Origin: the human T2T-CHM13v2.0 reference genome, Homo sapiens
NCBI RefSeq assembly: GCF_009914755.1
Contig: NC_060935.1
Direction: 5' to 3' (one strand)
DNA: 64,000 bases
The notes under the pieces are model-generated. The model ran no database searches. It was not told where the DNA came from and worked only from the letters and a program-made list of their open reading frames with translations. How positions within the stretch are numbered: position 1 is the stretch's first letter; every line of letters starts with the position of its first letter. Positions 2,500-43,442 of this stretch are shown here, in pieces. The translations under genes were made by a program, and so were the position numbers.

Positions 2500-5400
2500 T
2501 GGTAAGTTAGTTTTTACTTAGAATATCTTTTTCTGTATAAATACACATAGATAACATAAATGTACAAAATGTGAATGTACAGATCAACAAATGATCACAA
2601 AGTGAACACCATATAATTATCACTGAAAGTTAAAAATATTGTTGGCACCCCTCCCAACTGCTGCCTTGACTTCTAACACCCTAGGCCAGTGTCTCCTATT
2701 TTGACTTTATGTAAATGGAATCATACAGGGCATCTTTTTTAAATATGTTTTCTTTTGTTCAACATTGTGAGGTTCAGCCATTTATCGATGTTGCAGTGAT
2801 TTGTTCATTTTCACTGTTGTATTGGGTTCATTTAGTAAATACATTATAATAATTTATTTAACCATTTTACTTTTTCTGAACATTTGGATTATATCTAGGG
2901 CTTGTCTATGGTAAATAATTAAGACTTCGTTTGTGTTTATGTTCATAACTGAGATCTCTTTGTCAGGTTTTGGTGCCAATGTTTAGGGCTCTCATAAAGG
3001 ATTTAGGAAGGCGAATTTGTGTAAGACAAGTATCACTTCTTAAACATTTAATGGAGTTCATTAGTGAAGCCTTCTAGAGCTGGCATTTTCTTTTTGAAAA
3101 AGTGTGTGAGTGTGGATTCAATTATTGAAAGATTAAAGTACTATTCAGATTTTGTTTCTTTTAAAGTTAGCTTTGAGAAAATATATTTTTCTGGAAATTT
3201 TCCCATTTCATCTAAATTTTCAAATATATTGCCTTTAAAATATTCGTTTTTGATGTCTAGATCATTGGTAGTAACGTTCCCCTTGTCATTTGTTACAGGA
3301 TATCGATGCACTCTTTTTTCTTGATAATTCTCACCAGAACACTATCAATTTTATTAATTGTTCAAAGTACAGTGTTTGGCTATGACTCTTACTGTGTTAA
3401 GTATTTATTTTCTGATTCTGTCATTATCTTTATTATTTTGTTTATTCAATTTCTTAGTTTAGGATTAATTTGCTTTATTTTTATAATGTCTTGACATAGA
3501 TACTTAGATAATGGACTTTCAGTCTTTGTTCTTTTTAATTATATGAATTTAGGTTATTAATCATCATTTACGCATGGATTTGGTTGCATCCTCTAAGTTT
3601 TAAAAAGATTTTTTGAGGTAAAATTACATAACATAAAATTAGTTCTGTTAAAGTGAACGATTAAGTAGTCTTTCATGCCTTCACAATGCTATGCAGCCTC
3701 TATCTCCAGTTCCAGCACATTTTCATTATCCTATAAACATTGGGCAATTACTTCTCCATTTTCCCCTTCTCCCACCGCCTGGCAACAGCAATCTTTTTAT
3801 TATCTTTATGGATTTGCCTATATTGGAAATGACTCCCATACCTTTTTTTTTTTTACACGTAGAATAAGAATAAATTTAATGTATTTATTTTCATGACTGA
3901 AGAATTACATTCTTCAAAGCAAGAATTCAGAATGTACATAATTATAAGCCATATTTCATATCAGTGCATTATTTTTATATTATACTTTCTATTATATGGG
4001 TAATGGTTCATATTGAAATACAGAAAAAATAAGTTGTAAGACAAGCGATGTCTATATAGGAAGAGATGAATCATTTTAGTGTCTTATTAGTTGGATAATT
4101 GCTGCTTTAAGGTTGCCATGTTAGCCTAACAGTTTAATCATAACTATAAATTCTATCTAAAAAATAATAAAGGTTTCATAACAAACAGCTGATACTAAAG
4201 GTGAGCACTTCACCTGTAGGTGCTTCTCTGAAGGTGTCAAGTAGACTTCGGTATGTGCATTTTAGAATGTCTTAAAGATGATTTTGTAAGGAGCTGGCAG
4301 GCAAATTAAGCCCAACAAAAGAGAAGGTCTGCAAATTATCCTGCAGGTTAGGGCCAATCTTCTTGAGTCTGCTAGGAATTATAAAATACCTACTCTTGCT
4401 CTTTCACCTCTAAGTTTTAAGTTGGAATTTTACTTTTCCTTCATACGGCTGTGTGGATTGTTGAAGGTCACATGCTTCACAAGCACTTGCCCATAATGAC
4501 AACTTCCATGTTTTGGGGGACATTGAGAAGCTTCCCTGGGTCCAGAACTTTGCTATAGTAGGGCTGTGCTTTCTTCTCATATTAAGGCAAATAGTGTAGA
4601 CCGAAGGCGCCATTTGGCAGGTAGTATTCAACCTGAGGCACTGGATGTCCTGGAGGCAGTGTCCAGAAAGCTGCAGGCCACTCTGGGGGCCATGTTGTTG
4701 CCGGGGGGAAACTTGATGATCTTTACCAATCAGTTTATACTTTTTGTGGATTCTTGGTACTGTTTAAGTTCCTTTCTTTTCAAGTTGAAGGACTTCCTTT
4801 AGCACTTCTTGTAAAGCAGGTCTAGTGGCGATGAACTCCCTCAGTTTTTGTCTGGAAGTCTTTATCTCTTATTCATTTTTGAAAGACAGTTTTGCTGGAT
4901 GTAGTATTCTTGGTTGCCAGTTGATTTTTCTTTTAGCATTTTAAATATATCGGTCCATTCCACGCTAGCCTGCAAGGTTTCTGCTGAAAAATCTGCTGAT
5001 AGTCTTATACCCTACAAGTTTCTATCAATTTTATCATCATCATCAAAGAATTCAAATATTTTCCAACTTCCTTTGTCATTACTTGTTAGATTTATGGTTT
5101 ATTTAGAAGTGCTTTTCTTAATTTCCAAGAATTTGGATATTTTAGGGTTATCTTTTTTATCAGTTTCTTTCTTAAATGCATTATAGTCTGAGAAGTTTAT
5201 GTGAAGACTAGTTTAATACAGGATCAAGCTTGTAAATATTCTGAGGTATACTTGAAAGAATATGTGTATACTGTAGATGTTAGATCAATGTTCTATTATG
5301 TCAATTAGTTCAATTTTGTTAATCATCTTCTTTTAAATGTTTTATGTCTTTATTGATTGTTATTTGCTTTGCCTATTGACTATTGAAAGGTTGTATAAAA

Positions 5401-5800
5401 ATTTCCCGCTATGGTTGTAAATTTATTTATTTCTCTTCTGTCAATTTCGCTGATATGTTTTGAATCTCTGCTTTTATCTTTCTTATGTATGTTGTATATA
5501 CATTTTTGGTAAATTAAGAATTTTACCATCATGAAATGTCCCTCTTTATCTCTAATAATGCTTCTTGCCTTAAAGTATTATTTTTCTGAATATTAACAGA
5601 GCTATAGCAACTTCCTTTTGGTTAGGGTTTACATATCGTTATCCATTGTTTTTCTTTTATTTTTCCAATGCCTTATGTTTTTGATGCTTCTCTTATATGT
5701 AGCATATAACTACTTTATTTGAAATCAAGACCAGCAACCTTTGCCCTTTAATTTGAAGCATTTCAGAGACTCCAATTTTATGTGCTAGACTGTTTTGTTA
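2500..5800 (-). mobile_element. Old L1 (L1M-type) fragments, antisense, hosting the ATP4B retrocopy
   Basis: AT-rich sequence with recognisable antisense L1 ORF2 and 3'-end phrases; boundaries approximate. Confidence 0.7.
3843..4720 (-). pseudogene. ATP4B: 5'-truncated processed pseudogene of ATP4B (gastric H+/K+-ATPase beta subunit): exons 5-7, 3'UTR and poly(A)
   Basis: Minus strand, across frameshifts: [20 protein letters not shown] / [27 protein letters not shown] / [13 protein letters not shown] / HVTFNNPH / [11 protein letters not shown], matching the recalled ATP4B C-terminus; no introns; ATTAAA (3880-3875) and AATAAA (3889-3884); T12 at 3843-3854. Confidence 0.9.
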
Positions 5801-6266: not shown

Positions 6267-6383
6267 AACTGGAATTATGGATTCGTGTTCATCAATGGAC
6301 GTAACCTTGGGCGATATTGGAATATTGGGCCTCAGAAAACACTGTACCTTCCTGGAGTTTGGCTTCATCCAGAAGACAATGAG
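6267..6383 (+). CDS. GLB1L3: GLB1L3 coding exon, 117 bp ([39 protein letters not shown])
   Basis: INGxNLGRYWxIGPQxTLYLP GH35 motif; tttcag acceptor, GAG|GTATGT donor. Confidence 0.95.
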
Positions 6384-41063: not shown

Positions 41064-43442
41064 TTACTATATGGTTTATCCTGGAGAGTGTTTTATGTGC
41101 CCATGAGAAAAATGTGTATTGTGCTACTTTTGGGTGGAATGTTGTGTATATATATGTTTGGTCCAACTGGTCCATAATATTGTCTAGGTCCTCTATTTGG
41201 TTACTAATTTTCTGTCTGGTTACTCTATCCATTATTGATATTCAGATATTGAGTCTCCTACTATTATTGTCTATTTTTCCCTTTAATTTTGCCACTGTTT
41301 GGCTCATATACTTTGGAATTCTGGCATTTGGTGCATATATGTTTATAATTGTTATATCCTTTTGGTGAATTGACCCTTTTATCATTATATATATTTTATC
41401 ATGTCTTTGTCTCTTGTAACAGTTTTTGATATAAAGTCTATTTTGTTTGATATTAGCAAAGCCACCCCTCCTCTTTTGATTACTGTTTGCATAAAATATC
41501 TTTTTCCAGCCTTTCACTTCCAACCAATAAATATCCTTAGATCTGAAGTGAGTGTCTTGTAGATAGTATATAGTTGGATATCGGTTTGTTAAAAATCCAT
41601 TCTGCCAATGTATGTCTTTTGATTGGGGAGTTTAATGTGTTTACATTCAAAGTAATTACTGATAGAGAATCACTTGCTTTTGCCATTTTGTTGCTTTCTG
41701 TATGTCTTACAGCTTTTTGTCCCTCATTTCCTTTATGACTGCTTTACTTTGTATCTAGTTGATTTTTTTATAGTGACACTTTTTTATAACGATTCCCTTT
41801 ACCTTGGGATAAGGTAAAGGATATATAATATCCTAAAGTTGTGACATTCTGTTTTAAATTGATACCAACCTAACTTCAACTGCACACAAAAACTCCTTTA
41901 CAGTTCTGCCCTTCCACTTTATTTTATTGATGTCACAAATTATGTCTTCATATTGGGTGTACCCATTAACTTAAATTTATAATTATTTTATGTCTTTTAA
42001 AATCTTGTAGAAAATAAAAAGCCACATTGTAAAGAAAAATTATAATAATATTTTTATATTTTTTATGTGTCTATCTTTGCTGGAGAACTTTATATTTTCA
42101 TATAGCTTCAAATTACTCTCTAGCATTTTTTCATTTCAACTTTAGGTGTTTTTTTTCTAGGGAAGGTCTAGTGGTAATGAACTCTCTTAGCTTTACTTTG
42201 GGAATTTCTTAATTTTTCCCTCATTTTTGAGTTTTGCTGGATATAGAAGTGTCAAAAAAAAAGTTGACACTTTTTCCTTTCAGCACTTTGACTATATCAT
42301 CTCATTGCCTTCTGGCCTGAAAATTTTCTGGCTGAGATATCCTTTATAGTCTTATTGAGGATCCCTTGCCTGTGACCAAAACTTTTTCTGGCATTCAAGA
42401 ATCTCTCTTTGTCTTCAATGGTTTGATTATAGAGTGTCCCTGAGTGGTTCTCTGGAATTTTTTGAGCTCCTTAGATTTATATAATCTTGTCTTTCCTCAA
42501 ATTGGAGAAGTTTTCAGCTATTATTTTGTAAAAATAATCTCCCTGCCCTTTTATCTCTCTTTTTCTTCTAAGAAACCCATAATTCATATATTATTCTGCT
42601 TGAAGATGTTGTGTAAGCCCCTTAGGCTCTGTTCACTTTTCTTTATTCTTTTATCTCCTCAGACCTGATCATTTCTGATAACCTGTGTTTAAGTTTGCTT
42701 TTCTTTCTTCTACCTGTTTGAATCTGCCGTTGAACTCCTCTAGTGAATTTTTCAATTTATATATGGTATATTTCAGCCCCAGAAGTTCCTTTGGTTCTTT
42801 TAAAAATAATCTCTGTTTCTTTGTTGATATTCTCTTTTTCTTCATATATCATTTGCCTGGTTTCCTTTAGCTCCTTGAGCATATTTACGACAGCTGTTAT
42901 AGATCTTGCTCTACTGAGTCTGGTGTGTGTGTTTCTTCAGATACTGCTTTTGGAGATTTATTTTGTTCCTTTGATGAGTCATACTTCCCTGTTTCTTTTT
43001 ATGTTTGTGTTTTTTTGGTTGAACATTGGGCTTTTGAAAAAACAAACACCTATTTCAGTTTTTGCATGTTTTCAGGGGAACCCTCACTAATTAGTGGGCC
43101 CCTAAGCCCGGAGATCAGCCCAACATGAAGACTTAAGAGCTGATATTTTCTGGGCATGTGTTCTGTCTGTATCTGTGTGTGTGCTTCCCTCCCTACCTCC
43201 CCTCCCTGGTCGCTTTCAAGGGTCTTTAATTCCCAGAGTCTCACCCCAGCTTCTTCTTGTGGCCTTAGATGCTTTTCATTTTCTTTTGCTGTAATTCTTT
43301 TCCCCCAGGCATCCAAGGCTTTATAGTCCTCTGGCAGCTTTCATATGCTGCCATCTTTAGCTTCCAGCCTGAAGTCCAAACTATGTTGACGATTCCTGTT
43401 TGAGCTCCATGTCAGACAAGACAGAAACCAGTACGTTGGGCA

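What the first reader, a model, noticed from the sequence alone, without database searches (positions are those of the whole stretch)
4700..5008. ATP4B retrocopy appears to derive from an L1-to-ATP4B spliced chimeric transcript
Seen: on the minus strand, L1 sequence (5008 to 4721, homologous to the L1 at ~42075-42350) ends ...ttggtaaag and is joined directly to atcatcaagttt (IIKF). Knowledge (recalled): the ATP4B exon 4/5 boundary falls at KMNR|IVKF, and old L1 consensus reads ggtaaag|gtaaat here, a donor-like site. Inference: the 5' end is a splice junction rather than random truncation. An L1-driven transcript would have spliced into ATP4B exons 5-7 and then retrotransposed, which would explain germline mobilisation of a stomach gene.
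Basis: partly seen in the sequence, partly recalled or inferred. Interest (0 to 1): 0.8.

Follow-up and report, generated by a model that had tools for sequence, protein, structure and literature searches.

The report
Fossil L1-to-ATP4B spliced retrocopy
An old, dead copy of the stomach proton-pump gene ATP4B begins exactly where an L1 retrotransposon splice-donor site meets the start of ATP4B exon 5, so it is most likely a reverse-transcribed fossil of a hybrid L1-ATP4B messenger RNA.

Summary
On the minus strand, 5008-4721 is L1 (the end of ORF1 plus 43 nt of inter-ORF spacer). It abuts 4720-3855, an intron-less copy of ATP4B exons 5-7, followed by A12 (3854-3843).

- **ATP4B side.** In this genome's own ATP4B gene (chr13), the exon starts at ...cccttctAG|ATCGTCAAGTTC, exactly where the copy starts. 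The previous exon ends ...AAAATGAACAGG|GTGAGT (KMNR|IVKF).
- **L1 side.** Among 29 L1 relatives aligned across the break, 20 have GT as the next two bases. Twelve match MAG|GTRAGT at 8 or more of 9 positions, and AAG|GTAAAT is the commonest form. Sites that good occur at 33 of 94,168 positions in the same loci.

Two splice sites meeting by chance is roughly a 1-in-100,000 event or rarer.

- A complete L1 3' end (3842-3602) follows the A12.
- The whole 1.4 kb block sits inside an older L1 ORF2 and is flanked by a 13-15 bp target-site duplication that starts AAAA.
- Human ATP4B has no same-orientation L1 in the 20 kb examined; intron 4 is 1,145 bp.

Three questions stay open: whether the 3' L1 piece arrived in the same event by template switching or was already there, whether splicing was cis or trans, and whether an L1 promoter drove the transcript. 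This is a new variant of known chimeric retrocopies, of moderate interest.

The parts
5009..5021 (-). 5' copy of the target-site duplication (aaacttgtagggt). It is the end of the upstream part of the host L1 ORF2.
   Evidence: The upstream and downstream host-L1 flanks overlap by about 13-18 bp on reference L1 copies. On L053 the subject coordinates are 1673-1500 and 1514-1158.
4721..5008 (-). L1 fragment: the C-terminal part of ORF1 (stop codon TAA at 4766-4764) plus 43 nt of inter-ORF spacer, ending ...ttggtaaag at a donor-like site.
   Evidence: A stop codon is aligned at 4766-4764 in 22 of 29 relatives. GT follows the break in 20 of 29.
4664..4720 (-). Part derived from ATP4B exon 5 (57 nt), starting exactly at the parental acceptor site.
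4564..4663 (-). Part derived from ATP4B exon 6 (100 nt; 102 nt in the parent).
   Evidence: the exon 5/6 and 6/7 joints are exact and the introns are absent.
3855..4563 (-). Part derived from ATP4B exon 7 (end of the coding sequence and the 3' UTR). It ends at the parental poly(A) site, and the ATTAAA signal is retained.
   Evidence: Over the whole copy, 588 of 807 aligned bases are identical to the spliced parent (72.9%; K2P distance 0.35).
3843..3854 (-). A12 tract between the ATP4B part and the L1 3' end. It is the poly(A) tail of the chimeric mRNA. The parent genome has A7GA3 at this point, so part of the tract could be templated.
3602..3842 (-). L1 3' end fragment in the same orientation, 5'-truncated and complete to the family's natural 3' terminus.
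   Evidence: All 19 fetched relatives align; 14 of them span about 3830 to about 3600.
3588..3600 (-). 3' copy of the target-site duplication (aaacttagaggat; with base 3601 it starts AAAA). The host L1 ORF2 resumes here.
5022..5770 (-). Upstream part of the older host L1 (ORF2 endonuclease region).
   Evidence: 5330-5009 aligned to L1 ORF2 copies. The upper limit of about 5770 was judged by eye.
2560..3587 (-). Downstream part of the host L1 (ORF2 continues).
   Evidence: 3601-3250 aligned to the same L1 ORF2 copies. The lower limit of about 2560 was judged by eye.

Best explanation
Window 5008-3843 (minus strand) is a reverse-transcribed copy of a hybrid mRNA. In that mRNA a sense-strand L1 transcript was spliced from a donor in the L1 inter-ORF spacer to the natural acceptor of ATP4B exon 5. 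The donor reads AAG|GTAAAT or AAG|GTAAGT and lies about 45 nt after the ORF1 stop codon. The mRNA then ran through exons 6 and 7 and was polyadenylated at the ATP4B site.

If it started at the L1 5' end, such an RNA carries ORF1 but no ORF2. It therefore had to be copied by ORF2 protein supplied by another L1. The cDNA was integrated by target-primed reverse transcription into an older L1 in an intron of GLB1L3. It was truncated 288 nt into the L1 part.

Shown:
- both sides of the junction sit at splice sites;
- the introns are removed;
- the copy ends at the natural poly(A) site;
- the target-site duplication lies outside the L1 piece.

Inferred:
- Splicing was in cis from an L1 then lying in or upstream of ATP4B intron 4. 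About 3:1 over trans-splicing, as a judgement.
- The L1 promoter drove the transcript.
- The event is roughly 60-100 Myr old.
- The L1 3' end after the A12 was added in the same event, when the reverse transcriptase began on an L1 RNA and switched to the poly(A) tail of the hybrid mRNA. I put this only slightly above even odds.
For: - **L1 side.** GT follows the break in 20 of 29 relatives, and 12 of 29 match the donor consensus at 8 or more of 9 positions. The background rate for such sites is 33 of 94,168 positions.
- **ATP4B side.** The copy starts at CTTTTCCCTTCTAG|ATC, after a 1,145 bp intron. The preceding exon ends AACAGG|GTGAGT.
- **Cryptic acceptor excluded.** A processed ATP4B copy would read ...ACAGG|ATC, with GG rather than AG before the junction. 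The substrate must therefore have been the real gene.
- **Processed copy.** Introns 5 and 6 are removed exactly, and the copy ends at the parental poly(A) site with ATTAAA retained.
- **No exon 4.** Exon 4 has no similarity to 4700-5010; the hits are 7-10 nt long with E above 1.
- **Target-site duplication.** A 13-15 bp duplication starting AAAA flanks 5008-3602, shown by overlap of the host-L1 flanks on reference copies.
- **Position of the donor.** It lies 43-45 nt after the ORF1 stop codon.
- **Age match.** The L1 piece is 17% diverged from its relatives' majority (238 of 287 identical). The ATP4B K2P distance of 0.35 is split over two lineages. The two pieces are therefore of similar age.
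- **Uniqueness.** The ATP4B part matches only itself and the parent gene in this genome.
- **Precedent for the kind.** Chimeric retrocopies with an L1 3' part made by template switching are described in Gogvadze 2007 (PMC2104539; outline (abstract) and sections 3 and 8 read). Retrocopied splice junctions between gene exons and L1 are described in Law and Burns (Cell Genomics 2026, PMC13174262; passages read).
Against: - **No source L1.** No sense-strand L1 was found in the 20 kb around human ATP4B. The only L1 there is antisense, upstream of exon 1.
- **Donor inferred from relatives.** The donor's intron side was removed by the splice, so it is known only from relatives, and 9 of 29 lack GT at that point.
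- **One ambiguous base.** The G before ATC could be the last base of exon 4.
- **Points against a single event for the 3' L1 piece.**
  - A 5-nt repeat GGTAT (5011-5007 and 3842-3838) directly flanks the inner L1-ATP4B-A12 block, as a short target-site duplication would.
  - The 3' piece is 25% diverged from its relatives' majority (171 of 228 identical). That is lower identity than all 14 relatives show, whereas the ORF1 piece is 17% diverged.
- **Attempt to link the two L1 pieces failed.** It found nothing.
- **Weak Pfam support.** The match for the ORF1 piece is just below the curated cut-off.
Confidence: 0.8

Rival explanations
1. Same spliced L1-ATP4B retrocopy, but built in two steps. 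A short 5'-truncated L1 3' end (3842-3602) first inserted into the host L1 and made the 13-15 bp duplication. Later the L1-ATP4B-A12 cDNA landed exactly at its 5' edge and made a 5 bp duplication, GGTAT.
For: - GGTAT is present at 5011-5007 and at 3842-3838, directly flanking the inner block.
- The 3' piece looks more diverged than the ORF1 piece (75.0% against 82.9% identity to the relatives' majority).
- My own estimate, which rests on no call: chance abutment to one of the genome's roughly 1e6 L1 fragments is about as likely a priori as an mRNA-L1 template-switch chimera.
Against: - The site GTA|GGTAT offers no A-run for priming on poly(A), unlike the outer duplication, which starts AAAA.
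- Five bases is short for an L1 target-site duplication.
- The last two bases (AT) also fit the L1 ORF1 sequence (codon ATA of IRLSADFS), so only GGT is surely repeated.
- The divergence comparison is weak. The 3' relatives came from only 79 first-look candidates, and they differ more among themselves.
Confidence: 0.4
2. The junction is a splice junction made in trans: an L1 RNA from elsewhere was joined to ATP4B pre-mRNA at exon 5. No L1 ever lay in the ATP4B gene.
For: - No sense L1 is present in the human ATP4B region.
- Law and Burns report 17 mRNA/L1 chimeras. For 15 of them the gene locus has no intronic L1, and the authors propose trans-splicing (PMC13174262, passages).
Against: - It needs ATP4B pre-mRNA to be present in germline or early-embryo cells.
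- Trans-splicing is rare in mammals.
- A sense L1 in a 1.1 kb intron that hijacks splicing would probably be harmful. It could easily have been lost or never fixed, so its absence today says little.
Confidence: 0.2
3. No splicing occurred. An ordinary ATP4B cDNA happened to stop at the exon 5 start, and the reverse transcriptase then jumped to an L1 RNA at a point that happens to precede GT (a double template switch).
For: - Double template switches and tripartite chimeras are documented (PMC2104539, section 8).
- All three parts are in the same orientation within one duplication.
Against: - The joint chance of both break points falling at splice sites is about 1e-6 to 2e-5 (and the exon count).
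- In the described chimeras the 5' parts are full-length RNA copies (PMC2104539, section 3). Here the ATP4B part lacks exons 1-4.
Confidence: 0.04
4. A long L1 running from the end of ORF1 to its 3' end first inserted into the host L1. A 5'-truncated ATP4B retrocopy then inserted into it and deleted about 4 kb of ORF2.
For: - Both L1 pieces are in the same orientation and in the right order.
- The outer duplication would belong to that L1.
Against: - It needs the same double coincidence at splice sites.
- It also needs a large target deletion.
- The two L1 pieces do not look equally diverged.
Confidence: 0.03

Closest known systems
Chimeric retrogenes made by L1 template switching (Buzdin and colleagues; Gogvadze et al. 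2007, PMC2104539)
   Same: A cellular RNA copy is joined in the same orientation to a 5'-truncated L1 3' end. The whole is flanked by a 10-20 bp duplication at an A-rich site, and tripartite forms exist.
   Different: - Here the 5' member is itself a spliced L1-gene hybrid, and it is 5'-truncated rather than a full-length RNA copy.
- The paper says that no flanking repeats could be identified for the two human tripartite elements known at the time. This one has them.
- Co-insertion of the 3' L1 piece is not proven here.
mRNA/LINE-1 chimeric insertions with splice-site junctions (Law and Burns, Cell Genomics 2026, PMC13174262)
   Same: Retrocopied junctions between a gene exon and L1 that fall exactly at splice sites, explained by cis- or trans-splicing before retrotransposition.
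   Different: - The polarity is opposite. In their cases a gene's first exons (donor) are joined to an L1 acceptor, with near full-length L1 downstream. Here an L1 donor is joined to a gene's last three exons.
- ATP4B and GLB1L3 do not occur in the main text of the preprint (ATP4B only) or in the 6 supplementary files held.
Spliced integrated retrotransposed elements, SpIREs (Larson et al. 2018, PMC5860796), and L1 splice sites (Belancio et al. 2006, 2008)
   Same: L1 RNA carries working splice donors, and spliced L1 RNAs have been retrotransposed.
   Different: - In SpIREs both splice sites lie inside L1 (5' UTR or ORF1 of primate L1PA). Here the acceptor lies in a host gene, and the donor is in the inter-ORF spacer of a much older L1.
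- The Belancio papers could not be read. From recall, they describe L1-gene hybrid ESTs, not their retrocopies.
Ordinary processed pseudogene (RefSeq LOC100421417)
   Same: Intron-less, ends at the parental poly(A) site, and decayed, with several stop codons (translation).
   Different: - It starts at an internal exon boundary fused to L1, rather than at a random truncation point or at the mRNA 5' end.
- The annotated span 4407-4908 runs 188 nt into L1-derived sequence and omits the 3' UTR.

Membership tests
Processed pseudogene / retrocopy of ATP4B | The parent's introns are removed exactly. | tested here: met
   The exon 5/6 and 6/7 joints are exact.
Processed pseudogene / retrocopy of ATP4B | Ends at the parental poly(A) site with an A tract. 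| tested here: met
   ATTAAA is retained. A12 lies at 3854-3843. The parent has A7GA3 there, so the tract may be partly templated.
Processed pseudogene / retrocopy of ATP4B | Flanking target-site duplication. | tested here: met
   A 13-15 bp duplication, but it flanks the whole 5008-3602 composite and not the ATP4B part alone.
L1 (the 5008-4721 piece) | Homology to L1 ORF1 and the inter-ORF region. | tested here: met
   All 40 scored hits had E of 1e-38 or better. Relatives read ...RPALQEMLKGVLQ...KGH*.
L1 (the 5008-4721 piece) | Pfam L1 ORF1p domain at or above the curated cut-off. | tested here: inconclusive
   Tnp_22_dsRBD scores 21.6 bits against a cut-off of 22.2. Only profile positions 1-21 of 65 align, because of frameshifts.
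Splice junction (spliceosomal, GT-AG) | The upstream partner ends immediately before GT in a donor consensus. | tested here: met
   Inferred from relatives: 20 of 29 have GT and 12 of 29 match at 8 or more of 9 positions. The source element itself cannot be seen.
Splice junction (spliceosomal, GT-AG) | The downstream partner starts immediately after a polypyrimidine tract and AG. | tested here: met
   CTTTTCCCTTCTAG|ATCGTC in the parent gene.
Template-switch chimeric retrogene (Buzdin type) | The 3' part is a 5'-truncated L1, in the same orientation and directly joined. | tested here: met
   The A12 lies between the two parts.
Template-switch chimeric retrogene (Buzdin type) | The 5' part is a full-length copy of a cellular RNA. 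| tested here: not met
   The 5' part is truncated 288 nt into its L1 portion.
Template-switch chimeric retrogene (Buzdin type) | All parts arrived in one event. | not testable with these tools
   This needs a multi-species alignment. The GGTAT repeat and the divergence gap leave a two-step origin open.
mRNA/LINE-1 splice chimeras (Law and Burns) | A gene's 5' exons end at a donor and are joined to L1 downstream. | tested here: not met
   The polarity is opposite: an L1 donor is joined to a gene acceptor.
SpIRE | Both the donor and the acceptor lie inside L1. | tested here: not met
   The acceptor is ATP4B exon 5.

The most novel reading that the evidence does not exclude
The whole 1.4 kb block is one retrotransposition event. 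An L1 reverse transcriptase began on its own L1 RNA, copied 240 nt, and then switched to the poly(A) tail of a neighbouring mRNA that encoded ORF1 but lacked ORF2. That mRNA was made by splicing the L1 inter-ORF donor to ATP4B exon 5.

If so, this would be a human tripartite chimera bounded by a clear target-site duplication. It would also suggest a general route by which L1 donors capture the 3' exons of host genes, make them visible to the L1 machinery through ORF1 protein bound in cis, and so mobilise genes that are silent in the germline.
Probability: 0.4. Interest if true: 0.6.

Novelty: new variant of a known kind. Interest (0 to 1): 0.5.

Why it matters
Retrocopies normally report which genes were expressed in the germline. 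ATP4B is a stomach gene (my own knowledge), so a retrocopy of it is odd. A fossil splice junction from L1 into ATP4B offers an explanation: the retrotransposon, not the gene's own promoter, may have supplied the transcript. This also adds the missing polarity to the recently catalogued exon-to-L1 chimeras. Here L1 is the donor and the gene's 3' exons are the acceptor side.

It has a practical use as well. Retrocopies that start exactly at an internal exon boundary, preceded by transposon sequence ending at a donor site, could be screened for genome-wide.

It also shows that the RefSeq span of LOC100421417 includes 188 nt of L1-derived sequence.

Tried and rejected
- **PDB search.** A search with the L1 piece failed because the translation contains stop codons. 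I used Pfam with X at the stops instead. That gave only the weak ORF1 hit. Nothing was found for the ATP4B piece or the host-L1 pieces, which are all frameshifted.
- **Papers not held.** Belancio 2006 and 2008 could not be read, so what they say about L1-gene hybrid transcripts is recalled only.
- **Linking the two L1 pieces.**
  - I tried to show that they belong to one subfamily by fetching the presumed 3' ends of ORF1 relatives.
  - A smaller one, 5 regions of 3 kb, was granted. None of the 5 matched the 3' piece.
  - My windows probably missed the element ends, so this is uninformative.
- **Divergence from a leave-one-out majority.** This is suggestive only, because the 3' relatives are few and heterogeneous.
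- **Read-through idea.** The parent has TATGGGAG 22 nt past its A-run, and the copy has the same 8-mer 2 nt after the A12. I considered whether the copy runs past the ATP4B poly(A) site. I rejected this as likely chance, because L1 relatives carry a similar string at that point and nothing else aligns.
- **Cryptic acceptor inside an earlier ATP4B retrocopy.** Rejected: exon 4 ends AGG, so no AG precedes the junction.
- **Exon 4 remnant.** Tested because the RefSeq span reaches 4908. Exon 4 has no similarity there.
- **Literature.** Searches for this locus or this polarity of chimera and the Law and Burns supplements found nothing. These cover open-access papers only.
Full report
**What is there.** Everything below is read on the minus strand. 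The interval lies in the GLB1L3 intron between exons 1966-2077 and 6267-6383, antisense to that gene (hub table). From 5' to 3' it contains:
- An older L1 ORF2 (the host L1), running from about 5770 to 5009.
- An L1 fragment, 5008-4721, ending ...ctgattggtaaag.
- An intron-less ATP4B copy, 4720-3855, beginning atcatcaagttt.
- A12, 3854-3843.
- An L1 3' end, 3842-3602.
- The host L1 ORF2 resuming at 3601/3600.

**The ATP4B side.**
- The window's own genome could be searched. The ATP4B part matched only itself and three blocks on contig C13.
- I fetched 20 kb there and read the gene. Translation of open stretches showed four exons: the one starting MAALQEKK, a VWISLYY exon, a GYSP...KMNR exon, and one in between (VTLRPD..., seen). 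Three more exons follow, which makes seven coding exons.
- The KMNR exon ends ...ATTATTAAAATGAACAGG|GTGAGT. After 1,145 bp of GC-rich intron the next exon starts CTTTTCCCTTCTAG|ATCGTCAAGTTC. The copy starts at that base.
- The last three exons are 57, 102 and 667 nt long. The copy joins them exactly (TTTCTG|GA..., GCACAG|CCCTAC...). It ends where the parent is cleaved, with ATTAAA about 20 nt upstream.
- Identity to the spliced parent is 588 of 807 aligned bases (72.9%), with 76 gap positions and a K2P distance of 0.35. At about 2.2e-9 substitutions per site per year (a recalled rate) that is roughly 80 Myr. I give 60-100 Myr as an inference.
- Exon 4 has no similarity to 4700-5010. The RefSeq pseudogene span 4407-4908 therefore overshoots by 188 nt into L1 sequence.

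**The L1 side.**
- 5008-4721 gave 3,259 first-look candidates in the genome. Forty were scored, and the non-self hits were 73-79% identical.
- I aligned the 29 relatives that were fetched, each with 160 nt beyond the break.
- The next two bases are GT in 20 of 29. The 9-mer is AAG|GTAAAT in 8, AAA|GTAAAT in 3 and AAG|GTAAGT in 2. Twelve of 29 match the textbook consensus MAG|GTRAGT at 8 or more of 9 positions. Nine have no GT or a gap.
- In the same 29 loci, read in the L1 sense orientation, such sites occur at 33 of 94,168 positions. Sites matching 7 or more of 9 number 225, and any GT numbers 3,505.
- A stop codon (TAA in 19, TAG in 3, so 22 of 29) aligns with the window's TAA at 4766-4764. 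Read in that frame, relatives give the ORF1p C-terminus, for example ...KQKLRKFITTRTALHEMLKGVLQGEKKGH* in L026.
- The donor therefore sits 43 nt (window) or 45 nt (most relatives) past the ORF1 stop, in the inter-ORF spacer.
- Pfam gives only a sub-threshold Tnp_22_dsRBD hit, because of frameshifts.

**Is the junction more than chance?**
- A random L1 break at a donor this good has a probability of about 3.5e-4, or 2.4e-3 by the laxer criterion.
- A random ATP4B truncation at one of six internal exon starts in an mRNA of about 1.4 kb has a probability of about 4e-3. This doubles because of one ambiguous base: the G before ATC could be the last G of exon 4.
- The joint probability is about 1e-6 to 2e-5. 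It is post hoc, but far below what a single observation could explain away.
- A cryptic acceptor in an already processed ATP4B copy is excluded, because exon 4 ends AGG and no AG would precede the junction. The splicing substrate was the real gene.

**How it got here.**
- The host L1 flanks were aligned to independent L1 ORF2 copies.
- On L053 the upstream flank (5182-5008) covers subject 1673-1500, and the downstream flank (3601-3250) covers 1514-1158, a 15 bp overlap. Four other references give 13-18 bp by extrapolation.
- The two copies read aaacttgtagggt (5021-5009) and aaacttagaggat (3600-3588). With base 3601 the duplication starts AAAA, as expected for L1 endonuclease sites.
- The duplication therefore encloses the L1 piece, the ATP4B piece and the L1 3' end. 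None directly flanks 3843-4720.

**The L1 3' end.**
- 3842-3602 aligns with all 19 fetched relatives, and 14 of them span about 3830 to about 3600. It runs to the family's natural terminus (...ttttacctcaa[t]aaa...ttttt).
- Two readings remain.
  - **(a) One event.** Reverse transcription started on an L1 RNA and switched to the poly(A) tail of the hybrid mRNA. This is the mechanism described for chimeric retrogenes, including tripartite ones (PMC2104539; outline (abstract) and sections 3 and 8 read). It fits an RNA that carries ORF1 but needs ORF2 protein from another L1.
  - **(b) Two events.** The hybrid cDNA landed at the 5' edge of an older L1 fragment.
- For (b): a GGTAT repeat at 5011-5007 and 3842-3838 directly flanks the inner block. 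The 3' piece is also further from its relatives' majority than the ORF1 piece is (171 of 228, 75.0%, against 238 of 287, 82.9%).
- Against (b): GTA|GGTAT is a poor priming site; five bases is short for a duplication; the AT of GGTAT also fits L1 ORF1 (IRL...); and the 3' relatives are a small, heterogeneous sample.
- I put (a) slightly ahead, at about 50-55% against 40%.
- An attempt to tie the two L1 pieces to one subfamily found nothing.

**Source of the hybrid RNA.**
- The 20 kb around human ATP4B (8.7 kb upstream to 2 kb downstream) has no sense-strand L1.
- The only L1 there, upstream of exon 1, is antisense. This was shown by strand in two independent searches and by eye.
- That fits either an L1 insertion in intron 4 that was later lost or never fixed (a sense L1 that captures splicing would be harmful), or trans-splicing as proposed for other mRNA/L1 chimeras (PMC13174262, passages).
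- The copy is truncated inside L1, so it cannot be seen whether transcription started at the L1 promoter. The idea that this explains germline mobilisation of a stomach gene is reasonable but untested.

**Comparison with what is known.**
- Processed pseudogenes, L1 splice sites and spliced L1 retrocopies (SpIREs; PMC5860796, passages read), and template-switch chimeras are all established.
- Law and Burns list 17 mRNA/L1 chimeras in which a gene's first exons end at donors and join L1. The present case has the opposite polarity.
- ATP4B and GLB1L3 are absent from their text (ATP4B only, in the preprint) and from the 6 supplementary files held.
- Five literature searches found no report of this locus or of a retrocopied junction from an L1 donor to a gene acceptor. 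They cover open-access papers only, and Belancio 2006 and 2008 could not be read.

**Verdict.**
- The splice-junction reading is well supported, at about 0.8 to 0.85.
- Cis against trans splicing, promoter use, and single against two-step assembly remain open.
- This is a new variant of a known kind. Interest is moderate (0.5).

Noticed in passing
window 4407-4908 (RefSeq LOC100421417): The annotated pseudogene span runs 188 nt past the ATP4B homology into L1 ORF1-derived sequence (4721-4908). It also leaves out the 3' UTR part (4406-3855). Exon 4 has no similarity to this stretch.
   Followed up: yes
window 5011-5007 and 3842-3838: A 5-nt direct repeat GGTAT flanks the inner L1-ATP4B-A12 block. 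It could be a short target-site duplication from a second insertion. It could also be a microhomology at which the cDNA paused before a template switch.
   Followed up: partly
window 3840-3833; parent locus L005 (C13), about 22 nt past the A-run at the ATP4B poly(A) site: The 8-mer TATGGGAG occurs just after the A12 in the copy and just downstream of the poly(A) site in the parent. L1 relatives have a similar string at this point, so it is probably chance.
   Followed up: partly
window about 2560-3000, minus strand: By eye, the host L1 seems to jump from mid-ORF2 to its own 3' end (ggcagcagttgggaggggtgcc...), which suggests an internal deletion.
   Followed up: no
L005/L006 (C13), about 2.5-6 kb upstream of ATP4B exon 1: An L1 lies in antisense orientation relative to ATP4B. 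Further upstream there is a long array of short GC-rich tandem repeats (CACCTGGG-like units).
   Followed up: partly
window 42164-42355, minus strand: A second, more diverged L1 ORF1 fragment lies in a GLB1L2 intron (66.8% identical to 5008-4818).
   Followed up: partly
L1 relatives L008-L036: The inter-ORF spacer of this old L1 family carries two overlapping donor-like sites (TGG|GTAAAG and AAG|GTAAAT). Only the second was used here.
   Followed up: no
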